From a virus (Duplodnaviria; Heunggongvirae; Uroviricota; Caudoviricetes), in IMG/VR virus record IMGVR_UViG_2698536484_000028: a stretch of 11,543 nt of DNA. The stretch is one strand, 5' to 3'. Of the stretch, positions 194 through 11,180 are shown in pieces (position 1 is the first letter of the stretch; each line of letters begins with the position of its first letter). The notes below the pieces were generated by a model. It had not been told where the DNA came from and made no database searches. It was given only the letters and a program-made list of their open reading frames with translations. Made by a program: the position numbers and the translations under genes.

Positions 194-955
194 TTACGAG
201 GAAGCGTTAGCTATTTGAGCTTGTGTAAATTCGAAACCAGAATTTTGTAACCGTTGCACTAGACGAGGAACTGTTTCACGTACATGGTCGTTGAAATTCA
301 GATACAAAATCCCGTTAGCATCAGAAGGCTGTTCTAGGTGCTGTTTCTGAAGGATTGCTACATTGCTGCGCCCTAAGGACGAAAGAAGCATACCCATCTC
401 GAGTACAACGTTCTGTCTTGCGCGGGGTTGGATTTCTGCTTCACCGGCGCGCTTTGAGTATCCCATATCATCAGGTGTCAAAAGAACAATCCCGAAACGG
501 GTAGCAGTTTGTCCTTGCCCAATTTCACGTTCAAGCTCTTCAATAATGGTGAGTCCAGTCCCTCCCGTATTCTGCAAAATGAAATGGTCTGGTAATCCAA
601 GTTTATGAAGGATTAGCTCAAGTTGCTCCTTTGCAGTATGGTCATGGCCGTGAACAATGAATATCTTTTTGGGGAGCTCAGATGGCTGTTCTACGGCTAG
701 TGGTGTTGCCGTGGGCGGCGTTCCTAAATGGGTCATTATTGCAGTTTCAACATTGGGACGTTCTTGAGGGTTACCTTGAAACTGAATGGTCCGGGTGGTG
801 TAAAGGTTAACAATTACGCCATTCGTTAAACGATAGCAGTCACAAGTCTCACGCTGTTCGTGGGAAAAATTGGTGAACCCACACTCCCTCAAAAAGTCAG
901 GAAAAGTTTCTCTCGAGTATGGATAGGTGATCGGCATTTCAGTTAGTTCCTGCAT
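194..955 (-). CDS. TIR-like (COG4271 / Cap12-PycTIR-effector-like) nucleotide-binding domain protein with an unrecognised ~75-aa N-terminal domain
   Basis: 253-aa ORF with AAGGA about 9 nt upstream of the ATG. Residues ~97-230 carry KIFIVHGHD..AKEQLELILHKLGL..GLTIIEELERE..FGIVLLTPDDMGY..NVVLEMGMLL, which I recognise as the hallmark pattern of the predicted nucleotide-binding TIR-like family. A Pro/Thr-rich linker (GTPPTATPLAVEQPSELP) joins it to the N-terminal domain. Family assignment is from memory, not a search. Confidence 0.75.
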   Translation of the reverse strand: MQELTEMPITYPYSRETFPDFLRECGFTNFSHEQRETCDCYRLTNGVIVNLYTTRTIQFQGNPQERPNVETAIMTHLGTPPTATPLAVEQPSELPKKIFIVHGHDHTAKEQLELILHKLGLPDHFILQNTGGTGLTIIEELEREIGQGQTATRFGIVLLTPDDMGYSKRAGEAEIQPRARQNVVLEMGMLLSSLGRSNVAILQKQHLEQPSDANGILYLNFNDHVRETVPRLVQRLQNSGFEFTQAQIANASS

Positions 956-1019: not shown

Positions 1020-3083
1020 TCAATCTTTTTTGTAGTGGTACGCCTCAAAACCGCCAGCGTTCAGTGGGATATCGGGCGCCCATTCGGGGTCAGTGGAGAG
1101 AAGCGCGGAAAGCGCTTTATCGTTGAAATCTTCTGTGTCAGGTGCTTCGGTGATCACCTCGTCGTGTACCGTCAGCACAATGCTGTAACCGGCATCTTCG
1201 ATAAGCGGCATGTTTCCGGCCAGAATGTCGCGGGCGGCCGCCTGGGTGATGTTCTCCACCAGCTTTCCGCCGTAGGTTTTGAGTCGTTGCCATTTACGCG
1301 AATAAGAGTTAACCCCCATGTAGGTGATATTCCCTTTTTCGATAACCGGAGACGGGTAGCATACAGCGCGTCCGGATGGTAGCTGTATGCGCAGCCACGC
1401 GCCATCGCGGCGGATTTTAAGATAACCGCAATACAATGTTTTTTGCGGTGTGGCGATTGCAGTGCGGACGGTGCGCTCCAGTTCGTACCAGAAATCACAG
1501 GTCGCGGGATGCGCCCGGCGCCAGAGACGTTTAAGTGAGTCGCAGGCGATAAATACCCGTTCAGAAAGCCCGTAGGTTGACTTGCGTTTAACCGATTCGT
1601 CGTACCAGCTTTTCGCCTCGCGGATAACATCGCGGGGAATGTTTGGTAGTGCGGCGTTCGCCAGCTCGTCGAGATCGAGACCGTAAACCAGTGCAAAAGT
1701 GATGAAGGCCGACACACCACCACCATAACCCAGACCGAGTTCCATGACTTTACCGATCTGACGCATGTGTTTATCAACATCATCTGGTGCAATATCGAAA
1801 GCTTTTGCATACGCCAGTTTATATAAGTCCGGACCCGTTCCGGCGTCGTACTCTCTGAATGCATTCAGTTTCCATTCTTCTCCCGCCAGCCATGCCAGCA
1901 TACGGCCTTCAATGTTCGACAAGTCACTTACCACCAGCTTTTTGCCTGTTGGCGCGATAATGCAGCCACGTAACGCTGAACTGGTTAGTTCCATGATATT
2001 GTCAAACAGCAGGTCTGCACATCCGGCTTTCAGTGCTTCGATGCCTTCGTCTATTTGTTCCTGTTTTAGTGAAGGGCGGGGAAGGTTCTGGGGCTGGAAT
2101 AGCCGTCCGGCCCAACGACCGGTACGTGACGCCCCGCAGAACTGTAGCGTACCGCGTAAGCGCCCGTCGTGGCTTACGCCTTTCATCAGTGCCTTGTATT
2201 TACTGGTGCTGGTAGTACTGGCCTGCAGGCGGATAGCCAGCAGTTCTTTCACGGCAGATGGTAAATCGGGGTCGGCAATACGACGTTCCAGAGTACTGCG
2301 TTGCATGTCTGGTAGCTCCACACCGTAGGATTCAACAATGTGCTTAATCAACGCGTCTCGTTGTGTGGCTGCCTGCACTTCGCCATCAGTCATTTCCTGT
2401 GTACGCTTTGCCAGGCGCTTTTGCTCCTGGTCTACCGCTTCGATCGCAGCGCGCGCGAGTTGAATGTCCATGCAGACGCCCCGGTCGTTGATCTGCTGAT
2501 CACGATGCCAGAGCGCCAGTTCTGTCCCCTGATAATTCCACTTCGGCAGACGTTTATAGACTTCGCGCATTGCCTCGATATCCAGTCCGGCGTAAGCAAC
2601 AAAGCGCCGCCATTCTTCCGGGTGGGTTTTACTGGTGGCCCGACGCAGTTTGCTGTTTTTCGGGCGTGGCTTACAGAACAGCTGGATCAGCGCTTTACCT
2701 TCTTTGTCCTTCGCTTTGTCTTGCGGGACGCCGAGTATTTCGCAGAGTTCCCCCAGAGACCCCGGGAGGCCGTGCGCCAGCGCCTGCACCATTGTGTCGC
2801 GCCAACGTTCGACTGGCGGTGCCAGGCGCGGCATTGCATAACGCAGAACGGTGCGGTCGAAGTGAGAGTTATGGAAATAAAGCAGGGTTTCAGGGTCTGC
2901 GATTGCTTCGTATAAGCCGTGTGGAATACCACCACCGGCAGTGATATCCCACACGTTTACTGGCCCGTCGTTGATAGCCCATGCGAAAAGCATCACTTCA
3001 ACGCCTTCGGCATACGCATGGGTACCGTTCGTAATAGGGATTTCGCAATAGGTTTCCAGGTCGCCCCATAGTATATTGGACAT
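1020..3083 (-). CDS. Family A (Pol I-like) DNA polymerase with N-terminal 3'-5' exonuclease domain, phage type
   Basis: 687-aa ORF with AAGG SD 7 nt upstream. Exo I-like motif WGDLETY near the N-terminus; motif A-like [15 protein letters not shown], motif B-like [16 protein letters not shown], motif C-like LTVHDEV. Confidence 0.9.
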
Positions 3084-3129: not shown

Positions 3130-3759
3130 ATGCATATGATCCAATACTTGATTGACCATACAGAGCATCTGGAGAAAATAGCTGGATATATTTTTTCATG
3201 TTTGATTGTTATGGGAGTCTGGATAAGAAAGATTATTTTTAATTATAAGTATAAAGAGCCTAAATATGTTAAGAAGTTAATTTTATATTTAGTTAAGTAT
3301 GAACGTTATCTGGATGAGGAGGATAAGAGTGCCATAGAAAAAAGAATAAATGATAAAATTATTCGTGATGCGCTGAAATTGCAATCATCTTATAACCGAA
3401 GAGATGTTATTTACATTTGCAATAGATTAGAAAAAAGACAGTATATAAATCAGTTGATTAAGCTTCAGAATTATATAGAGAAAGATAACGGAGTGTTTTT
3501 TATTAATGTTGATTTTTCAGGTTTTTTATTTATTATTAGTCGTCTGTTTTCCTTTCTGTGTTTTGTGCTGTTTACCCTTTTTTCTATTATCTGCATTATT
3601 TCCATAGGGCAAAATGAAGGCCTTTTAAATTATCTTGTGTATATGGTTATGATAATAGTTTTAGAGACTGTTGGTTTTTGGATGTATGATACTTTCCCGT
3701 CTAAGAAAAAGATCTGTGAACTAAATAAAGAATTGAGAAAGATTAAGATTCCTGAGTGA
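3130..3759 (+). CDS. Hypothetical multi-pass membrane protein encoded by a strongly AT-rich, opposite-strand insert
   Basis: 209-aa ORF on the opposite strand to its neighbours. Sample 60-nt lines count about 17-33% GC, against roughly 50% in flanking genes. Hydrophobic segments at ~aa 16-32, ~121-160 and ~168-187; Lys/Glu-rich middle region. No clear SD, and the start could be a downstream Met. Confidence 0.6.
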   Translation: MHMIQYLIDHTEHLEKIAGYIFSCLIVMGVWIRKIIFNYKYKEPKYVKKLILYLVKYERYLDEEDKSAIEKRINDKIIRDALKLQSSYNRRDVIYICNRLEKRQYINQLIKLQNYIEKDNGVFFINVDFSGFLFIISRLFSFLCFVLFTLFSIICIISIGQNEGLLNYLVYMVMIIVLETVGFWMYDTFPSKKKICELNKELRKIKIPE

Positions 3760-3811: not shown

Positions 3812-4360
3812 TTAAATTAGTGCTTCAGCATCAGCACCTTCGCTGATATCGTCGAAATCGTCAGCGCTTGCCACTCCGCCGCCAGCGAGTGCATCGCCGT
3901 CTCGCAGGAACTGGACTCCGCCGAGTGAGGCATTAATGCGTTTACCGAAATTATTGTCCTGTGCCCAGATATCGATAACGGCGTTTACATAGCACCCTGC
4001 ATAGGGACGTCCGTCAGCCTGAATAAGTGGCGAACGATCGCGATCAAGAACAGCTGGGCGCGCTTTGTTAGCAGCATTCAGGAAGAAATTACCGGGGAAG
4101 CCTTCATACTCTGCTTTTTCATCACCATCATGCAGGCACAGATTGAGTTTTTTCTCCAGCTGGTTATAAATGGGCTCCCACTTCTCTCCCCATTTTTCCT
4201 TCGCTACCTGCTTCATAGCTTTACGGATTTCTTCCAGTTGTGGGTGTTTGGGAGACATTAAAAATACTGCGGAGAAACGCGGATCGCCTTCGCCGTTTAC
4301 AGTTTTAGCTTCAAACAGAGACGGGAAGGCCAGACGAACATTGTTCAGCTTCAGTTTCAT
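3812..4360 (-). CDS. Phage SSB-like protein (DUF2815-type) with acidic C-terminal tail
   Basis: 182-aa ORF with AAGGA SD 8 nt upstream. N-terminus MKLKLNNVRLAFPSLFEAKT..PRFSAVFLMSPKHP matches my memory of the DUF2815 phage ssDNA-binding family (as in the Enc34-type replication module). C-terminal acidic tail DDFDDISEGADAEALI. Confidence 0.8.
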   Translation of the reverse strand: MKLKLNNVRLAFPSLFEAKTVNGEGDPRFSAVFLMSPKHPQLEEIRKAMKQVAKEKWGEKWEPIYNQLEKKLNLCLHDGDEKAEYEGFPGNFFLNAANKARPAVLDRDRSPLIQADGRPYAGCYVNAVIDIWAQDNNFGKRINASLGGVQFLRDGDALAGGGVASADDFDDISEGADAEALI

Positions 4361-4375
4361 GGGTATTTCCTTAAA

Positions 4376-5677
4376 TCAGATGAGGTCTGCGGTTAGCGTA
4401 TCGTCGGATACGTCGTCGAAATCATTTACAGGGTTGATATTGAGTGCGGGGCGTGGGTCTGACTCGGGAACGACGGTGGGTTTTCCATCAGCTCGTGTTA
4501 TCAGTGCCTCGACTTTTGACCAACGGCGCGGACTGGCCTTTTTGATAAGTTTTTCGGCTTTTGTGGGACTAATAAGTTTAAAGTCGAATACTTCTTCAGT
4601 TTTGTACCTGAACTGGTCCTTCAGAAGTGCGCGAGCTGCCTCTTCATCACTCCAGGCCCGGTTACCTTGTTTTCCTGTTACCAGTTTAAACCCCGGTACC
4701 GGATGTCCGGCATTGAGTTCATCGTGAACCCGGTCCCGTACTGCCTTTAGCCAGGATTCAATAAAGTCGGCCTGGCTATAGATCTCTGCAAGCTGCTCAA
4801 TGGTTAACAGAGGTACACGTGCGCTGGCATTGGTGATTATTTCGCTGACAGGCTTTGTCAGATCTTCAAAATCGCTGGCCGCTGTTTGTAAATGCTGCAT
4901 TTTCTGGGCAGTGCAAATAGCTTTTGCTTTACAGAAGCGGCACTGTTTTTCTCCAGGTATGAAGTTTTCCAGCGGTAGTGTCTCAATGCCTTCGCATTCA
5001 GCAATATTGAGAACAAGGATCGCACTGGTTGCGGCCTCCAGTGCCCGTTCACCGAAAGACTGAAGTTCCTGTACGGTTAACGACCATTCTGAAACGTGGT
5101 TGAGCCTTGGCTGGTGAATAAATAATCTTACAGTCTCAAAGTCATACAGCATGCTGAATTGTTCGAGAGCACCCAGAGCATACAGTTGTAGTTGCTCATT
5201 TTGTTCTGCATCAATGCGGACGCCTTTGCCATATTTCAGGTCGTGGATTTGTAATTCGTTACCAGCGATGATTATGCCGTCGGCAGTTCCGAAAGATTCT
5301 TCCACACCCGTTATATGTGAGAAATCAACACGTTGTTCAACCAATAGTTCATTATTCTGTGCAAGAGTCCAGACCGTATCAACATACCGGCCGACGGCTT
5401 CGACCATTTCATCATCCACCTGTGGGCCAGATGTATCATCAGGATTTTCGCGAAGGGGGTATGAGCCGAGAAACATAGAAACATTGCATCCGGCGTAGTG
5501 TTCCGGGTGGCTTTGCCTGTTTCGTAGAACTTTTTCAGCAAGCGCGTGCGCTGTAGTGCCCTCGATTGCAAAAGTTGTTTCTTTATCCGGTTGTGTGGCC
5601 TCCAGCGCCAGACTTCCTGGGCAGCGCATCCATCGATGCGCTGATGATGGAGAAAGTTGTGCGTGAACGTCTGGCAT
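4376..5677 (-). CDS. Cas4/RecB-like PD-(D/E)XK nuclease (DUF2800-type) with Cys cluster
   Basis: 433-aa ORF with GGAGGG SD 6 nt upstream. N-terminal [15 protein letters not shown]; GTADGIII and IHDLKYGKG nuclease-core-like motifs; QLQLYALGA (QxxxY); [10 protein letters not shown] plus the N-terminal Cys as a probable Fe-S/metal cluster. Acidic C-terminal tail [16 protein letters not shown]. Confidence 0.8.
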
Positions 5678-6582: not shown

Positions 6583-6728
6583 ACTGTGGTCCTCGCTACA
6601 AGGAGAATGAAAGTGATGATCAGACCGAGCGCAGTGGCAACGGCCAGACCGGTCATCAAATCGAAGTTTTTACGGCGATAACGGAGAACATCGCGCCCCG
6701 TCAGTCGATGGATGTGTTCAGGTTTCAT
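6579..6728 (-). CDS. Small single-pass membrane protein (about 49 aa from the preferred start)
   Basis: The ORF track gives 6579..6761, but the Met at 6728 has a good SD (AAGGA, 9-nt spacing) while 6761 has none. C-terminal hydrophobic helix LMTGLAVATALGLIITFILLVA. Translationally coupled (ATGA) to the next gene. Confidence 0.5.
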   Translation of the reverse strand: MKPEHIHRLTGRDVLRYRRKNFDLMTGLAVATALGLIITFILLVARTTV

Positions 6729-6785: not shown

Positions 6786-6813
6786 ATAAAAAAGCCCGTC
6801 ACTTGCGGCGGGC
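6786..6813 (-). terminator. Intrinsic terminator-like hairpin on the minus strand, upstream of the replication operon
   Basis: Minus-strand RNA reads GCCCGCCGCAAGUGACGGGC (5-bp GC stem with additional inner pairs) followed by UUUUUUAU. It lies about 58 nt upstream of the 6728 start codon, on the same strand. Confidence 0.45.
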
Positions 6814-6891
6814 AAAGACTACACACAGCAATTACATGGATATCATCGAGTGCCTGCTTTTAACCACATCAGGCGAGGTGGTTCTCCTTGT

Positions 6892-6936
6892 ACCCCTACA
6901 GTGAGAAATCGTCTAATATCTCTTCACCCCTACAGT
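6892..6936 (+). repeat. Two direct copies of ACCCCTACAGT upstream of the 6953 gene
   Basis: The core CCCCTACAGT occurs at 6893-6902 and 6927-6936, 34 bp apart. The second copy sits inside an imperfect inverted repeat (TCTAATATCTCT .. GAGAGATTAGA). A TAATAT hexamer lies between them at 6914-6919. Confidence 0.35.
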
Positions 6937-6952
6937 TTGAGAGAGATTAGAT

Positions 6953-7471
6953 ATGTCTGAAGAAAAAGGAATTCTTTCCCGGATAACTGAATCGTTATCC
7001 GGTGTGGGAGGAGCAATTAAAAGCGCGGTTGGAGCAGCAAGAGAGATTCAGAATCTGACTGTCGACTATGCAGTTAAAGAGAAGACGCACATCTTACTCG
7101 ATAAGCTAATGGATGTTCAGATGCAGCAAATGTCGCTTCAGGAGCTGCTGATTGCGGCTAAGGAGAAAATTGTTGAACTGGAAAATGAGAAAGTAAAGCA
7201 AGAGAACTGGGCCGCTGAAGCGGCGAGCTATGAACTTTACCAGCCTATGCGGGGTACTCTGGTCTATCGCAGCAAGCTTTCTGCAGATGCTGACCAATCT
7301 CCGGTTTATATTTGTCCCAATTGCTACGAGCAAAAGAGAAAATCTATATTGCAAGCGGAAGGTCTGGTTACTAAGCTAGGCCTTGGGCGAGTCGTTAATA
7401 TGGTTTGTTCGTACTGTAGGGCTTCCTATCTGTTCAACCCGAAATGCTTTAGAGGCCCGACTGCCTTCTGA
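6953..7471 (+). CDS. Hypothetical coiled-coil protein with C-terminal zinc-ribbon (CPNC..CSYC)
   Basis: 172-aa ORF with GAGAGA SD-like sequence upstream. Gly-rich N-terminal segment (SGVGGAIKSAVGAA), predicted coiled coil (LQELLIAAKEKIVELENEKVKQENW), then CxxC-25 residues-CxxC. Convergent with the cI-like gene. Confidence 0.7.
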   Translation: MSEEKGILSRITESLSGVGGAIKSAVGAAREIQNLTVDYAVKEKTHILLDKLMDVQMQQMSLQELLIAAKEKIVELENEKVKQENWAAEAASYELYQPMRGTLVYRSKLSADADQSPVYICPNCYEQKRKSILQAEGLVTKLGLGRVVNMVCSYCRASYLFNPKCFRGPTAF

Positions 7472-7574
7472 AGATGAAAATCCGGGGAAGGCAATCACGG
7501 ATTACGATCCTTACAACCAGTAATTTCTTTAAGCATGGGTACCCTTCCGGTCACCCAGAGTTAAAGGAACTAAG

Positions 7575-7601
7575 CGCCCCATCATCGGGGCGTTTCAACT
7601 T
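7575..7601 (+). terminator. Possible plus-strand terminator after the 6953..7471 gene
   Basis: CGCCCC-ATCATC-GGGGCG hairpin (7575-7592) followed by TTTCAACTT. The U-tract is weak. Confidence 0.3.
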
Positions 7602-7737
7602 GCGTGACTTATCAGTTCGTCGCGGTGTTGTCCTCTACGCTTACCGTACGCATACGGACTCGGCGCTTACCTCGATCCCATCGGGTGCTATTTCGTTTTG
7701 CCAGGAGCACTGCGGCTTACCTGTCACGCGGTTCTGT

Positions 7738-7749
7738 TTGTTAAAGAGC
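7738..7749 (-). promoter_or_regulatory. boxA element (exact GCUCUUUAACAA) in the leftward transcript
   Basis: The minus strand reads GCTCTTTAACAA, identical to the rrn boxA core 12-mer as I remember it (NusB/NusE binding site). It lies about 30 nt downstream of the predicted start of the leftward promoter. Confidence 0.45.
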
Positions 7750-7773
7750 TGGTATTAGAAAATGCATTAATTA

Positions 7774-7814
7774 TGCGGTATCGTATTTATATGCGTTATG
7801 GGATTTTGTGTCAA
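7774..7814 (-). promoter_or_regulatory. PL-like leftward sigma70 promoter overlapped by two operator-like repeats
   Basis: On the minus strand: -35 TTGACA (rc of 7809-7814), 17-bp spacer, -10 TATAAA (rc of 7786-7791). Operator-like motifs TGCGGTATCG (7774-7783) and TGCGTTATGG (7792-7801) flank the -10 hexamer. Confidence 0.55.
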
Positions 7815-7830
7815 TACGAAAATGAATTAT

Positions 7831-7868
7831 TTTGCAAATAAGAAAACCGCCCTTGTGGAGAGCGGTTT
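7831..7868 (-). terminator. Intrinsic terminator downstream of the cI-like gene
   Basis: Hairpin AAACCGC..GCGGTTT (7844-7868) with extra inner pairs; on the minus strand it is followed by UCUUAUUUGCAAAAU. Sits between the cI stop (7899) and the PL-like promoter. Confidence 0.5.
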
Positions 7869-7898: not shown

Positions 7899-8573
7899 TT
7901 AGTACATGCGTAGCGCGGATTTGGCGATCCCCGCCACGTAATGGATTTTTTCAATGTTTTCGCGTGGTACTCTGACTGGTGGATGATCTTCATTTACAGA
8001 CATTAGATGGAACAGGCCATCGCGTTCGAACAAGAAGGTTTTAACCATGACCTCACCGTCCCGGGTAACCACAAGTACTTCATCACCAGGAGTGTAGTCG
8101 TGGTTGGGTTCGACGATTACGAACTCACCCTCTTTGATTCTAGGCATCATTGAATCACCAACACATTTCAGGGCGTATGCATCTTCATCCTTTGTCGGCC
8201 AGTATATGAAACCATCACTGCTACCTACTGAATATTGGGTGTCGCTCCAAAGTCCTCCAACGCCTAGCTGAGTGTTTCCCAAAACAGGTACTTTATTAAA
8301 CCTAAGAGAAATATACGTTTTTATACCTGTCGCGTCCTCTTTCTCCATTTCTTGAAGGCTCCTTTCTGCCAGGTCTATTGGTGACACGTGGAAGTAGTCG
8401 GCGATCTGCTTTAACGTTGCGTATTTCGGATCTTTCACCTCTCCTGATACCAGCCTGTGTAGCGTTGGTTGGTTCAGCTGTAACCGACGTGCCAGCTCAG
8501 TTATCGAGCTTATCTTGGTTTTGTCCATCAGGTACTTGATGTTTTGAGAAAGGATATCGGTAGTATCAATCAT
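7899..8573 (-). CDS. cI/LexA-like phage repressor (N-terminal HTH, C-terminal S24 peptidase domain)
   Basis: 224-aa ORF. N-terminal HTH region (ITELARRLQLNQPTLHRLVSG); C-terminal S24 signature with Ser in CVGDSMMP and Lys in EVMVKTF. No canonical Ala-Gly cleavage site in the linker; candidates are L-G or V-G-G in VPVLGNTQLGVGG. Confidence 0.85.
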   Translation of the reverse strand: MIDTTDILSQNIKYLMDKTKISSITELARRLQLNQPTLHRLVSGEVKDPKYATLKQIADYFHVSPIDLAERSLQEMEKEDATGIKTYISLRFNKVPVLGNTQLGVGGLWSDTQYSVGSSDGFIYWPTKDEDAYALKCVGDSMMPRIKEGEFVIVEPNHDYTPGDEVLVVTRDGEVMVKTFLFERDGLFHLMSVNEDHPPVRVPRENIEKIHYVAGIAKSALRMY

Positions 8574-8714
8574 TTGGATTCATCCATGTTGTATACAGGG
8601 ACGGTGATTATGCGTTATCGGATATTTTAATACAGGATGATATAGAATTGCCGTATTGCTGAATAATCCGTTTTCGTATAAATTTGCGCTATAGACGAAA
8701 GTGGAGACTTAAAT
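8574..8714. promoter_or_regulatory. Divergent cI/cro-type immunity control region
   Basis: Operator-like motifs TGCGTTATCG (8611-8620) and TGCGCTATAG (8685-8694). Candidate rightward promoter -35 TTGCTG (8656-8661) / -10 TAAATT (8679-8684), with cro SD GGAG at 8703-8706. Candidate leftward -10 CATAAT (rc of 8607-8612). Palindrome TGTATACA at 8590-8597. Confidence 0.5.
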
Positions 8715-8915
8715 ATGTCCGGACTAACACCACAAGAGATGGTCAAAAGCTTGATTGATTCAGGGTATACCCAAAACCAAATTGCCGAAATTGCAGGCGT
8801 GAAGCAGTCTTCTATTAGTCGGCTTCTCACCGGGGTTCATTCTGACCCTCGCTTTTCTACAGTACGTGCGATAGAAAAGCTTTTTCAGGAAGTGACAGCT
8901 AGACAAAAGGCGTAA
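8715..8915 (+). CDS. Cro-like small HTH (XRE-type) regulator
   Basis: 66-aa ORF divergent from the repressor, with GGAG SD 8 nt upstream. HTH region QNQIAEIAGVKQSSISRLLTG. Stop is 3 nt before the primase start. Confidence 0.8.
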   Translation: MSGLTPQEMVKSLIDSGYTQNQIAEIAGVKQSSISRLLTGVHSDPRFSTVRAIEKLFQEVTARQKA

Positions 8916-8918
8916 CCC

Positions 8919-11180
8919 ATGTCTGATAACAAACCATGGGGAGCTACGCCCGATGAGTGGTTCCACTTCGATCTGGTGTTGGGGATGACAGACAGGCTTT
9001 TACCTGTGGTGTCCAATCCCTGTGCAGAACTGTCGCCTAATAGCAAGCTGTCTCATAATTTCGGCAAAACCCCCAGTCGCTACAATGGCCAACGTAAGGT
9101 TGTTGGTATCCCCGACTGGGCTAACTATGTTGTTACGGAAAACGATTTTGCCCGGTGGTCGAACGAACCCGATTACGGTATTTGCGTTCGTACTGGCGAC
9201 GGGGTGGTGGCTCTGGACTGCGATATCAATGACGCCGGGATGCAGGAGATCGTACGCAATATTATCCTATCATGCCTGGGGGAACTTCCGCCACGTCGCT
9301 GGCGGGCTGACAGTCATAAATGCCTGTACCTGATTGCTGTTGATGGCGACTACCGTAAACGTGGTCACCGCCTGGAAGGCGAAAACAAACAAATAGAGCT
9401 GCTCGCTAAGGGCCAGCAGTTTGTGGCTTGTGGTACCCATCCGGCAGGCGAACGTATTCAGTGGGACAGCGGTTTGCCCGGCGAACCTCTGAAAATTACA
9501 TCTGAACAGCTCGAAAGCCTGTGGCAGCGTCTGGCGGATAACTTACCCGTGAAAGACAGCTATACCGCAGGTGCAGGACGTCAGCGTGACCTTTCCTGTG
9601 TTGATCCTTCCGCGACAGATGATGTCGCCGACTGGCTTGACGCGAACGGGTGGACTCTGTCAGTCAGCTCTGATGGTTCCCGCAATCTGAAACCGTTTCG
9701 GGATGAGTCAGAATACAGCAACGGTTGCAGCGAAACATCCATTAAGTATTTTCCAAAAGGGACGGGGGGATTTGAACAGGGACATTTTAAAAGCATGCAC
9801 AACACCGATGCGGGGCTTACTGATGCCGACTGGCTGGAAGGCTACGGCTATACGCAATCCCTGTTCGAAGATCTCACGGTGGCTGAAGATGGCGATAAGC
9901 CTGAATTTACCGATATTAATACAGATATGACAGCTCATTTTCTGGAACGCTTTATCTACGTCATCGAGGGTGACCAGGTATGTGATCTTAGCCGACCGCC
10001 ATATCAGTGCATGATGGATATGAAGTCGTTCAAAAACCTGATGGCGCCTTACCAGTTCCCGCCAGAAGGGAAAGGACAACCAACTCCCGCAACCAAACGG
10101 TGGATAGAGCATCGGCATAAGAAGATTGCTGAGACGACAGGCTATAAGCCCGGTGCGGGACGTATTATCGAGCGTTTCGACGGGCGGTTTGAGATAAACG
10201 AATTTTATATGCCTGAGCATCCACGTACAGCGGATACAAGTAAGGTGTCCACGTTCCTTAATCATATGGCGTATCTGGTACCTGATGCCTGGCAGCGCGA
10301 GTTTTTCATCGCCCGTCTGGGGTGGATGGTTCAGCGTCCGGAGCGTCGATGCCCGATTTCTATTCTGCATGTGGCTACCGCACATGGTACGGGCAGAGGA
10401 TGGGTCAGTCAGTTAATGGAGCGCGTGCTTGGCCCGTGGAACTGTGCTCGTACTCGCATGAAGATCCTGTGCGATAACCAGTTCCATGACTATCTGTACA
10501 ATACACTTCTATGCACCATTGACGAGGTGCGCGAAAACGATAAGCGGTATGAGGTGAACGATAAGATCCGTGACGTGCTGACAGAACCACGGTTTGAAGT
10601 GAACCGCAAATATGGCAGCAAAAAAACGATGGATATATACACCGGCTTTCTGTTCTACACCAACCACTTTGATGCGCTGGCGCTGCCAGAGGAAGACCGA
10701 CGTATAGCTGTGCTGGGGGGCCCTGACTTCGCCGCAACTGAAGAGCATTACGCCAGCCTGTACGGTGCGCTAAGCGACAGCGACTTTATCGCCCAGGTGT
10801 ACTGGTATCTAATGGGCGTTGACCTGTCTCGCTTTAACTGGCAGCGCGCCCCCGAGACGAAAGAACGCCTTCTGATGATTGAAAGCAATAAGAGCGATGT
10901 GGAGGCTGCTCTTATTGAAATCCTGGATAATCCGCCTGTGCCAGCAATGACTTATCAACAAATTGTTAACGCAATACTGGCAGAAGCAGGAATGGATGTA
11001 GAAATTAACCAGAAGCATATTACTCGCATTTTGAAAGAAAGAACAAAGCGGGAACCCGTACGCGTAAAAATTGACGGGTTTGTATATAGGATTTGGATTC
11101 TTGTAAAAAATAACGATTTCAGCAACGAAGAATTGCGCGAAATATATAAATCTTGCGAAATTTTGCAATCTGGATTGTAA
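8919..11180 (+). CDS. Replication initiator: AEP-type primase-polymerase N-terminal domain fused to an SF3-helicase-like NTPase domain
   Basis: 753-aa ORF. N-terminal GICVRTGDGVVALDCD (hhhDhD-type AEP motif). C-terminal region has P-loop-like ILHVATAHGTGRGW, Walker B-like LLCTIDEV and motif C-like FYTNHF. An iteron origin lies immediately downstream. Confidence 0.8.
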   Translation: MSDNKPWGATPDEWFHFDLVLGMTDRLLPVVSNPCAELSPNSKLSHNFGKTPSRYNGQRKVVGIPDWANYVVTENDFARWSNEPDYGICVRTGDGVVALDCDINDAGMQEIVRNIILSCLGELPPRRWRADSHKCLYLIAVDGDYRKRGHRLEGENKQIELLAKGQQFVACGTHPAGERIQWDSGLPGEPLKITSEQLESLWQRLADNLPVKDSYTAGAGRQRDLSCVDPSATDDVADWLDANGWTLSVSSDGSRNLKPFRDESEYSNGCSETSIKYFPKGTGGFEQGHFKSMHNTDAGLTDADWLEGYGYTQSLFEDLTVAEDGDKPEFTDINTDMTAHFLERFIYVIEGDQVCDLSRPPYQCMMDMKSFKNLMAPYQFPPEGKGQPTPATKRWIEHRHKKIAETTGYKPGAGRIIERFDGRFEINEFYMPEHPRTADTSKVSTFLNHMAYLVPDAWQREFFIARLGWMVQRPERRCPISILHVATAHGTGRGWVSQLMERVLGPWNCARTRMKILCDNQFHDYLYNTLLCTIDEVRENDKRYEVNDKIRDVLTEPRFEVNRKYGSKKTMDIYTGFLFYTNHFDALALPEEDRRIAVLGGPDFAATEEHYASLYGALSDSDFIAQVYWYLMGVDLSRFNWQRAPETKERLLMIESNKSDVEAALIEILDNPPVPAMTYQQIVNAILAEAGMDVEINQKHITRILKERTKREPVRVKIDGFVYRIWILVKNNDFSNEELREIYKSCEILQSGL

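What the first reader, a model, noticed from the sequence alone, without database searches (positions are those of the whole stretch)
6953..7471. Convergent coiled-coil/zinc-ribbon gene sitting in the path of the leftward early transcript
Between the PL-like promoter (around 7800, leftward) and the replication operon (starting 6728, leftward) lies a 172-aa gene on the opposite strand. It has a Gly-rich N-terminus, a coiled coil and a CxxC-25-CxxC zinc ribbon. Being convergent with cI, it occupies the position where lambdoid phages carry lysogen-expressed exclusion genes (the rex position in lambda). Leftward transcription on induction would run antisense through it, which is a built-in switch-off. 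This makes it a candidate lysogen-expressed accessory or defence factor.
Basis: inference. Interest (0 to 1): 0.6.

Follow-up and report, generated by a model that had tools for sequence, protein, structure and literature searches.

The report
Rip1 anti-phage pore gene in sieB slot

Summary
The ORF at 6953-7471 (+) is real and codes on the plus strand. It is a full-length homologue (51% identity) of phage HK446 Rip1, "ring interacting pore 1". Rip1 is a prophage-encoded single-protein abortive-infection defence (Patel et al. 2026, Nature 651:1060; PDB 9OOX). An AlphaFold model superposes on 9OOX.

The gene is not in the lambda rex position. It sits in the sieB slot. The 105 nt upstream are about 81-90% identical to the lambda and P22 sieB promoter plus sas antisense-RNA block. 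P22's annotated -10 and RNA start are conserved here (TAATAT 6914-6919; A6926).

A collinear relative lacks window 6857-7574. So the gene and its promoter form a 718-nt cassette, inserted into the leader of the leftward operon. That operon has a TTGACA-17-TATAAA promoter (7814-7786), operator-like repeats and an exact rrn-type boxA (7749-7738).

The window allele carries one extra C at 7438-7440. This gives 172 aa instead of the usual 189.

The defence and lysogen-expression reading is supported by homology. Antisense shut-off has a direct precedent in P22 sas but is untested here.

Separately, an RprA-3'-like sRNA module lies next door (6833-6788, minus). It recurs in at least 117 viral contigs and deserves its own look.

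The parts
6953..7471 (+). rip1 homologue as it reads in this window (172 aa). Residues 1-161 are in the ancestral frame; the last 11 residues (PKCFRGPTAF) are out of frame.
   Evidence: ORF list. phrog_1244. 51% identity to HK446 Rip1. PDB 9oox_L at E=1.9e-46. Foldseek hit to 9oox_M at E=4e-10.
7438..7440 (+). CCC run with one extra C compared with the 189-aa allele. This is the frameshift site.
   Evidence: Alignment with phage 606R2. Deleting one C restores ...ASYLFNRNALEARLPSEDENPGKAITDYDPYNQ*.
7472..7523 (+). Remainder of the ancestral rip1 reading frame. It encodes the C-terminal tail ending DYDPYNQ and is now out of frame.
   Evidence: ORF 7383..7523. The tail is conserved in P0001, P0003 and P0011.
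6889..6926 (+). PsieB-type promoter: TGTACC at 6889-6894, -10 TAATAT at 6914-6919, predicted RNA start at A6926. This leaves a 27-nt leader that begins ACCCCUACAG.
   Evidence: Maps onto the promoter (29690-29720) and sieB RNA start (29727) annotated in P22 record NC_002371. Coordinates checked.
6850..6962 (-). Homologue of the P22 sas antisense RNA. It has two CUGUAGGGGU motifs and an AACCAC/GUGGUU hairpin, and it is fully complementary to the rip1 promoter, 5' leader and start codon.
   Evidence: P22 sas sequence from PMC13397905 Table 2. Alignment. 81% identity to lambda 34395-34499. 16 variants aligned.
6857..7574 (.). The rip1 cassette: sas/PsieB block, rip1 and about 50 nt more. It is present here but absent from a collinear relative.
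   Evidence: blastn of the window against IMG/VR locus L027: window 7575 matches L027 7071 and window 6856 matches L027 7097, so 26 nt there replace 718 nt here. L046 carries a different small gene at the same site.
7786..7814 (-). Leftward early (PL-like) promoter: TTGACA, 17-nt spacer, TATAAA.
   Evidence: Read from the sequence. The consensus scan did not list it because its rule requires a T at position 6 of the -10.
7772..7807 (.). Tandem operator-like 18-mers (TATGCGnTATnGnATnTn) that overlap the leftward promoter. A third copy lies at 8609-8626 between the repressor and cro genes.
   Evidence: Repeat family D1 and inverted pair I1 (7814-7837 with 8656-8679).
7738..7749 (-). Exact rrn-type boxA (GCTCTTTAACAA), about 30 nt downstream of the predicted leftward start.
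   Evidence: It is the only exact match in the window.
7575..7592 (.). G+C-rich hairpin (CGCCCC-GATGAT-GGGGCG) at the end of the conserved leader and at the right edge of the cassette. It may act as a weak terminator for the plus-strand rip1 transcript.
   Evidence: Sequence. The leader 7575-7749 is 97.7% identical in L046 and near-identical in L027.
6788..6833 (-). RprA-3'-like module at the left edge of the cassette. 24 nt are identical to E. coli rprA nt 59-82, followed by an intrinsic terminator and a U6 run. The leftward transcript must pass it to reach the replication genes.
   Evidence: Rfam RF00034 at 47.5 bits, E=0.0014, below the gathering score. Alignment with rprA. Coordinates.
7844..7868 (-). 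Intrinsic terminator after the repressor gene. It separates repressor transcription from the leftward promoter.
   Evidence: Terminator scan.

Best explanation
The gene encodes a Rip1-family abortive-infection protein carried as a self-contained cassette.

In the lysogen (inferred by homology): the repressor keeps the leftward promoter off. The sieB-type promoter (-10 at 6914-6919, start at A6926) transcribes rip1 rightward.

On superinfection (known for HK446 and Pseudomonas Rip1, inferred here): Rip1 is harmless alone. When a superinfecting phage makes its ring-shaped small terminase or portal oligomer, Rip1's C-terminal four-Cys beta domain assembles as a 12-mer ring around it. The N-terminal amphipathic helices then form a pore in the inner membrane. 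The cell lyses before progeny mature.

On induction of the resident prophage (inference, with P22 sas as precedent): the leftward promoter (7814-7786) fires. RNA polymerase, modified at boxA, runs antisense through rip1 and through the sas-homologous block. This collides with rip1 transcription and yields an RNA complementary to the rip1 leader and start codon. New Rip1 synthesis stops while the phage makes its own terminase and portal.

The window allele has lost a 28-residue tail by a +1 frameshift but keeps every element present in the 164-aa HK446 protein. It is probably still active (inference).
For: Family membership:
- Profile against the PDB hits 9oox_L, named Rip1, at E=1.4e-52. The single sequence hits at E=1.9e-46.
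- BLASTP to HK446 gp37 gives 51% identity over 166 residues, E=5e-58.
- The AF2 model has pLDDT 84. Foldseek matches 9oox_M, the cryo-EM structure of HK446 Rip1 with T6 small terminase, at E=4e-10 with TM 0.81 normalised to the target.
- Residues 7-36 have a hydrophobic moment of 0.36-0.44, near the top 5% of shuffles and like HK446 Rip1.
- The four Cys are conserved.

Mechanism of the family: review PMC13434031, section 5, and the meeting report PMC12908700.

Promoter: the upstream block is conserved with lambda, P22 and HK446. P22's annotated promoter and RNA start map onto TAATAT and A6926. P22 sieB is described as prophage-expressed.

Cassette nature:
- The cassette is absent from the collinear relative L027, and L046 has different cargo at the same site.
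- Among 112 IMG/VR contigs with this block and a callable downstream ORF, the cargo is P22-type SieB in 58, lambda-type SieB in 23, Rip1 in 25 and another membrane protein in 6.
- A Yersinia homologue sits next to an N gene with the same two repeats.

Antisense: the P22 sas sequence aligns to the window's minus strand at 6962-6850.

Leftward promoter, operator-like repeats and boxA.
Against: - There are no expression data for either strand.
- The -35 of the sieB-type promoter is poor (TGTACC, 19-nt spacing).
- The frameshift may impair function. A second frameshifted allele exists (P0002, 165 aa), so the gene does decay in some lineages.
- The trigger specificity of this homologue is unknown.
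- No consensus minus-strand promoter was found for a discrete sas-like RNA.
- RNAalifold found no covariation in the sas block because it is nearly invariant.
- The RprA-like terminator at 6794-6813 could stop much of the leftward transcription just past the cassette.
- Rip1 protein already present at induction would not be removed by an antisense RNA.
Confidence: 0.8

Rival explanations
1. The window copy is a decaying pseudogene. The +1 frameshift removes a tail that this subfamily needs, so the protein is inactive and the locus is only a relic of a Rip1 cassette.
For: The extra C at 7438-7440. The 189-aa tail ending DYDPY is conserved in homologues of 54-66% identity. Only 3 of 26 matched E. 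coli genomes carry this allele. Another frameshifted allele exists, P0002.
Against: HK446 Rip1, whose structure was solved, is 164 aa and has no such tail. Most family members are 150-175 aa. The tail is predicted with low confidence, pLDDT 59-65. Everything up to 6 residues past the last Cys pair is intact, and RefSeq annotates the CDS as intact.
Confidence: 0.15
2. The protein has the Rip1 fold but works differently here. For example, it could act as a SieB-like exclusion factor or respond to a non-ring trigger without forming a pore.
For: It shares the slot, promoter and antisense block with SieB. It is only 51% identical to the characterised protein. Specificity was not tested.
Against: There is no sequence relation to either SieB type; PHROG assignments differ. 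There is no transmembrane segment: mean hydrophobicity is at most 0.21 in 18-residue windows over residues 1-72. The homology to Rip1 is collinear over the full length and includes the N-terminal helix.
Confidence: 0.08
3. The plus-strand ORF is spurious, and the functional product is a minus-strand RNA or protein made from the leftward transcript.
For: The minus strand is certainly transcribed on induction if the leftward promoter is real. An 82-aa minus-strand ORF overlaps the gene (7106-7354).
Against: The plus-strand product matches a solved protein and thousands of homologues over its full length. The minus-strand ORF is the usual shadow of a coding frame and was not called in any annotated record.
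Confidence: 0.01

Closest known systems
Rip1 of Escherichia phage HK446 (gp37, YP_007111990; PDB 9OOX, complex with T6 small terminase; Patel et al. 2026, Nature 651:1060)
   Same: Collinear over the full length at 51% identity. Both have an N-terminal Gly/Ala-rich amphipathic helix, a long second helix and a beta-rich domain with two CxxC pairs. Both sit in the same genomic slot with the same upstream sieB-promoter/sas block, on the strand opposite the leftward early operon.
   Different: The host phage here is a PolA/DUF2800/Enc34-SSB/PrimPol type rather than lambda-like. There is no N gene next to it. There are 27 rather than 23 residues between the Cys pairs. The ancestral form of this subclade has an extra 28-residue tail ending DYDPYNQ, which this window has lost by frameshift.
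Rip1 of the Pseudomonas aeruginosa prophage (founding member; Patel et al. 2026, as summarised in PMC13434031)
   Same: Same family by profile search. Both are single-gene prophage defences, harmless alone and triggered by oligomeric portal or small terminase. A Chromobacterium homologue found here lies between the DUF1804 and large-terminase genes on the opposite strand, matching the location described for the founder.
   Different: Different insertion site: packaging genes there, the immunity-proximal sieB slot here. The founder has no sieB-type promoter or sas block; none was found in the Mu-like locus L013.
SieB and the sas antisense RNA of phages P22 and lambda (Ranade & Poteete 1993)
   Same: Same slot, same promoter and RNA start, same antisense block. 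Both are prophage-expressed abortive-infection cargo lying antisense to the PL transcript.
   Different: The proteins are unrelated. SieB is a membrane protein in phrog_6399/1301; this protein is in phrog_1244. P22's Esc, an internal start within sieB that sas favours, has no evident counterpart here: no ribosome-binding site precedes the internal Met codons (read by eye from the sequence).
RexAB of phage lambda
   Same: Both are exclusion functions next to the immunity region that kill the infected cell through the membrane.
   Different: rex lies between cI and PL and is co-transcribed with cI. This gene lies beyond PL on the other strand with its own promoter, and there is no sequence relation.

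Membership tests
Rip1 (ring interacting pore 1) | Full-length sequence homology to an experimentally characterised Rip1 | tested here: met
   51% identity, E=5e-58, to HK446 gp37. phmmer against the PDB hits 9oox_L at E=1.9e-46 over residues 3-166. The family profile hits at E=1.4e-52.
Rip1 (ring interacting pore 1) | Fold: N-terminal helices plus a C-terminal beta-rich domain that superposes on the solved structure | tested here: met
   AF2 model with pLDDT 84. Foldseek to 9oox_M at E=4e-10, TM 0.81 normalised to the target, rmsd 3.0 over 128 columns. No other PDB hit has E<0.5.
Rip1 (ring interacting pore 1) | N-terminal amphipathic helix (the pore-forming part) | tested here: met
   Predicted helix at residues 2-34. 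Hydrophobic moment 0.36-0.44 over residues 7-36, against a shuffle median of 0.20 and a 95th percentile of 0.41. HK446 Rip1 scores 0.42.
Rip1 (ring interacting pore 1) | Two conserved Cys pairs in the C-terminal domain | tested here: met
   C121, C124, C152 and C155 are present. They are invariant or at least 90% conserved in 65 homologues.
Rip1 (ring interacting pore 1) | Single gene carried by a prophage | tested here: met
   Found in inducible phages vB_EcoM-606R2 and relatives and in 157 E. coli chromosomes. It is a 718-nt cassette missing from relative L027.
Rip1 (ring interacting pore 1) | Activation by oligomeric phage small terminase or portal, and assembly of a 12-mer ring | not testable with these tools
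   Known only for the HK446 and Pseudomonas proteins.
Rip1 (ring interacting pore 1) | Membrane permeabilisation and an abortive-infection phenotype | not testable with these tools
   Needs plaque, lysis and liposome assays.
SieB (lambda or P22 type) | Sequence homology to SieB (phrog_6399 or phrog_1301) and N-terminal membrane segments | tested here: not met
   Only phrog_1244 matches. No hydrophobic segment was found.
SieB locus (regulatory cassette) | sieB promoter, RNA start and sas antisense block immediately upstream, antisense to the PL transcript | tested here: met
RexAB position | Located between cI and PL and co-transcribed with cI | tested here: not met
   The gene lies left of the leftward promoter and on the strand opposite the repressor gene. 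A terminator follows the repressor gene.
DksA/TraR C4 zinc-finger regulators | Match to Pfam PF01258 (zf-dskA_traR) | tested here: not met
   No Pfam family at E<=0.01. No such structural match.
RprA sRNA (RF00034), for the neighbouring element only | Score at or above Rfam's gathering threshold over the whole model | tested here: not met
   47.5 bits against a gathering score of 70. Only the 3' 46 nt are homologous, with 24 nt identical.

The most novel reading that the evidence does not exclude
The sieB promoter/sas block is a portable, antisense-gated expression module. It supplies self-immunity to interchangeable suicide cargos: two SieB types, Rip1 and at least one more membrane protein. 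For Rip1, the resident phage's own leftward transcript silences the sensor just before the phage builds its own terminase and portal rings. In this phage the module was dropped into a boxA-containing early leader directly upstream of an RprA-3'-like terminator module. The early leftward transcript could therefore yield a chimeric RNA that both masks rip1 and carries a host-sRNA-like Hfq/seed domain.
Probability: 0.25. Interest if true: 0.6.

Novelty: new member of a known kind. Interest (0 to 1): 0.33.

Why it matters
This names a "hypothetical protein" that sits in about 3% of complete E. coli genomes (157 of 5426) as a member of a defence family whose mechanism was solved only in 2026.

It shows that in enterobacterial prophages Rip1 commonly occupies the classical sieB slot, with the sieB promoter and the sas antisense block intact. 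That points to a concrete, testable way a prophage could avoid triggering its own ring sensor on induction.

It also gives a natural pair of alleles (172 and 189 aa) for testing whether the C-terminal tail matters.

Tried and rejected
1. Pfam, NCBIfam and PADLOC gave nothing for the ORF. Only PHROGs (phrog_1244, unknown function) and the PDB sequence search named it.

2. A DksA/TraR-like regulator (coiled coil plus C4 finger) was considered. It was rejected because there is no PF01258 hit and no structural match.

3. The lambda rex analogy was rejected on gene order and strand.

4. I asked whether the 260-nt leftward leader (7520-7780) is an HK022 put-like antiterminator RNA.
   - The fold is no better than shuffles, z=-0.64.
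   - There is no Rfam hit.
   - Only the boxA is recognisable.

5. A 32-codon Arg-rich minus-strand ORF (7710-7612) was considered as a mini-N. The three differences from L027 inside it are all non-synonymous (read by eye). There is no support for it.

6. The minus-strand 82-aa ORF inside the gene is a shadow ORF.

7. I tested whether the RprA-like element is an att-site copy of host rprA. This was rejected for three reasons.
   - It is internal to the phage genome.
   - Its terminator differs from host rprA.
   - At least 72 variants occur in viral contigs.

8. RNAalifold on 16 sas-block variants found no compensatory pairs. The 3' 70 nt are almost invariant and the 5' hairpin is not in register between sequences. 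The sas structure is therefore not independently supported here.

9. The primary Rip1 paper (doi 10.1038/s41586-025-10075-1) is not held. The mechanism is cited from a review and from PDB titles.

10. The first word-based homologue search found only 16 relatives. A profile search was needed to see the family.

Full report
**1. Observation**

The window reads as the early region of a temperate phage:
- a TIR-domain gene at 194-955 (minus);
- DNA polymerase A at 1020-3083 (minus);
- an Enc34-type SSB at 3812-4360 (minus);
- a DUF2800 nuclease at 4376-5677 (minus);
- two small or unknown genes ending at 6728 (minus);
- the ORF in question at 6953-7471 (plus);
- an S24/HTH repressor at 7899-8573 (minus);
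- a Cro-like HTH at 8715-8915 (plus);
- a PrimPol/DUF5906 gene at 8919-11180 (plus).

The region is 98% identical to induced E. coli phages such as vB_EcoM-606R2. It matches 157 of 5426 complete E. coli genomes, and O55:H7 DEC5E at 99.9%. The Cys spacing is CxxC-27-CxxC rather than 25.

**2. What the protein is**

- Pfam, NCBIfam and PADLOC are silent. PHROGs places it in phrog_1244, function unknown.
- A first homologue search gave 16 enterobacterial proteins. A profile search gave 252. An exhaustive profile search gave 4467 cluster representatives at E<=1e-3. Most of the best-scoring ones are 150-175 aa, and the named homologues come from diverse Proteobacteria.
- A profile of 65 members hits one PDB entry at E=1.4e-52: 9OOX chain L, "ring interacting pore 1 (Rip1)". 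The window protein alone hits it at E=1.9e-46.
- 9OOX is the cryo-EM structure of phage HK446 Rip1 with phage T6 small terminase. HK446 gp37 is 51% identical to the window protein from residue 1 to the last Cys pair.
- An AlphaFold model of the 189-aa form (pLDDT 84) has helices at 2-34 and 39-90 and a beta-rich domain at 93-162. It matches 9oox_M with TM 0.81 normalised to the target. No other PDB entry matches.
- The N-terminal helix is moderately amphipathic, like that of HK446 Rip1.

Rip1 was described by Patel et al. (Nature 651:1060, 2026). I could not read that paper. A review and a meeting report summarise it:
- Rip1 is a prophage protein that is harmless alone.
- It is triggered by portal (Pseudomonas phages) or small terminase (E. 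coli phages).
- Twelve Rip1 monomers ring an 11-mer terminase.
- The N-terminal amphipathic helices form a pore, and infected cells lyse prematurely.
- Homologues are widespread in Proteobacteria, mostly in prophages.

**3. The allele**

Compared with 606R2, the window has CCC instead of CC at 7438-7440. Deleting one C restores a 189-aa protein that ends at 7523 with ...AITDYDPYNQ.

The long form is the common one. Its cluster has 102 member sequences. The tail is kept in homologues of 66% and 54% identity. Only 3 of the 26 E. coli genomes that matched an 81-nt probe carry the extra C. RefSeq annotates both forms as intact CDSs.

HK446 Rip1 (164 aa) and most relatives lack this tail, and the model predicts it with low confidence. 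I therefore expect the 172-aa allele to be active, but this is inference.

**4. Where it sits**

The 105 nt upstream (6850-6955) are 81% identical to lambda 34395-34499 and similar to P22, HK446 and many other lambdoid phages. In lambda this is the region just upstream of sieB. That gene lies on the strand opposite the PL operon, between ral and N. In HK446 the same block precedes rip1 (gp37), which abuts N.

The P22 record annotates the sieB promoter and RNA start. Aligned to the window, they fall on TGTACC (6889-6894), TAATAT (6914-6919) and A6926. The correct lambda analogue is therefore sieB, not rex.

The sequence published for the P22 sas antisense RNA (127 nt; PMC13397905 Table 2) is the reverse complement of this same block. 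The window's minus strand at 6962-6850 aligns to it, including two CUGUAGGGGU motifs and an AACCAC/GUGGUU hairpin. That paper describes sas as the antisense regulator of SieB translation.

**5. A portable cassette**

I scanned IMG/VR for the block. Their cargo was:

| Cargo | Contigs |
|---|---|
| P22-type SieB | 58 |
| lambda-type SieB | 23 |
| HK446-type Rip1 | 16 |
| window-type Rip1 | 9 |
| another 177-184-aa membrane protein | 6 |

- A Yersinia homologue lies between an N-peptide gene and leftward genes, with the same two repeats.
- A Chromobacterium homologue lies in a Mu-like prophage between the DUF1804 and large-terminase genes on the opposite strand, as reported for the founding Pseudomonas gene.
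- An IMG/VR relative (L027) is collinear with the window on both sides but has 26 nt where the window has 6857-7574. Another relative (L046) has a different small gene there.

So rip1, its promoter and the sas block form a 718-nt insertion.

**6. The leftward transcript**

- On the minus strand, TTGACA-17-TATAAA lies at 7814-7786. It is just downstream of the repressor gene's terminator at 7868-7844.
- It overlaps tandem 18-mers that recur between the repressor and cro genes.
- About 30 nt after the predicted start is the window's only exact rrn-type boxA, at 7749-7738.
- The leader from boxA to a G+C hairpin (7592-7575) is 97.7% identical in L046, although the flanks are only about 75% identical.
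- No N-like gene follows.

Leftward transcription must cross rip1 antisense, then the sas block, then an intrinsic terminator (6813-6788), before it reaches the replication genes at 6728. It is the same arrangement as sieB in lambda and P22.

**7. Mechanism and its status**

- *Shown here:* family membership, fold, cassette structure, promoter homology, and the antisense geometry.
- *Taken from the literature for close relatives:* ring sensing, 12-mer pore formation, and premature lysis.
- *Inferred:* expression from the sieB-type promoter in the lysogen; shut-off on induction by convergent transcription and a sas-like RNA; activity of the truncated allele.
- *Weak points:*
  - There are no transcript data.
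  - The -35 is poor.
  - No separate promoter was found for a sas-like RNA.
  - There is no covariation support for the sas structure.
  - Pre-existing protein would not be affected by an antisense RNA.

**8. Side observation**

Immediately left of the cassette, on the minus strand, Rfam gives a sub-threshold RprA hit (47.5 bits against a gathering score of 70).

- Twenty-four nucleotides (6833-6810) are identical to E. coli rprA nt 59-82. A different terminator hairpin and a U-run follow.
They carry 72 distinct flanks and many compensated terminator stems; one stem pair shows GC 12, AU 8, CG 4, UA 1.
- It often lies just after boxB-like GAAAGA hairpins or tRNA-like 3' ends (read by eye).
- A divergent relative found through the protein (L011) keeps the module with a 2-nt insertion and a different stem.
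- I found no paper on such phage copies in the held library.

This looks like a widespread phage sRNA or terminator module that shares the 3' domain of RprA. It is not part of the finding, but it bounds the cassette.

**9. Verdict**

The finding is a correct call of a defence gene. The gene belongs to a family that is now known, so the novelty is "new member of a known kind". Interest is modest. The added value is the sieB-slot/sas context, the cassette boundaries and the natural frameshift allele.

Noticed in passing
window 6788-6833 (minus); also L011 about 4851-4909, L005 1773-1871, and IMG/VR loci L014-L133: An RprA-3'-like module. 24 nt are identical to E. coli rprA nt 59-82, followed by a different terminator hairpin and a U-run. 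Rfam RF00034 scores it at 47.5 bits, below threshold. The exact 20-mer occurs in at least 117 viral contigs with 72 flank variants and compensated terminator stems, often right after nut-like hairpins. No report was found in the held literature.
   Followed up: partly
window 7575-7749 (minus): The leftward leader carries an exact rrn-type boxA (7749-7738) and is 97.7% identical in relatives whose flanks are only about 75% identical. Yet no N-like gene follows and the fold is no better than shuffles. A 32-codon Arg-rich ORF (7710-7612) lies inside it, but its three substitutions against L027 are all non-synonymous.
   Followed up: partly
window 3130-3759 (+): A 209-aa ORF with GC 0.287 (window mean 0.477). 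By eye it has hydrophobic stretches, and it lies on the strand opposite its neighbours, between the polymerase and SSB genes. It belongs to phrog_10579 (unknown function) and has no Pfam or PADLOC hit. The slot varies in relatives: 323 nt in L051 and 1083 nt in L061, against 736 nt here. It is a second moron candidate.
   Followed up: partly
window 194-955 (-): A TIR-domain protein (Pfam CAP12-PCTIR_TIR). It matches the PADLOC candidate system PDC-S35 at E=4e-109 and sits at the end of the leftward replication operon. It is a third likely defence cargo in this 11.5-kb window.
   Followed up: partly
window 7502-7523 (+), compared with L001 2090-2142: The ancestral Rip1 tail ends ...TDYDPYNQ, and is conserved in P0001, P0003 and P0011. 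Lambda SieB ends ...ASYDPYNIEIKPRPISK. The motif is shared at the protein level with different codons. P22 SieB and HK446 Rip1 lack it. Unexplained.
   Followed up: partly
IMG/VR loci L154, L182, L202, L213, L234, L236: A further cargo class lies behind the same sieB-promoter/sas block. These are 177-184-aa proteins that start MPNWIEAVIAYLKQNTSLRFNM and, by eye, have hydrophobic stretches. BLASTP relates them to neither SieB type nor to Rip1.
   Followed up: no
window 7772-7807, 7814-7837, 8609-8626, 8656-8679: Operator-like repeats are shared by the leftward promoter region and the repressor-cro intergenic region (18-mer TATGCGTTATCGGATATT and an inverted 24-mer). This fits one repressor controlling both promoters.
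   Followed up: partly
protein P0002 (165 aa, from a Logan assembly): A second, independent frameshift allele of the same gene. It is 100% identical over the first 129 residues, then goes out of frame inside the Cys domain. The gene appears to decay repeatedly in some lineages.
   Followed up: no
L009 5962-6163 (Yersinia prophage): Next to the rip1/N region of the Yersinia prophage lie Rfam-level C4 antisense RNA and isrK matches (85 and 62 bits). The early-left leader of that prophage is therefore also dense in regulatory RNAs.
   Followed up: no
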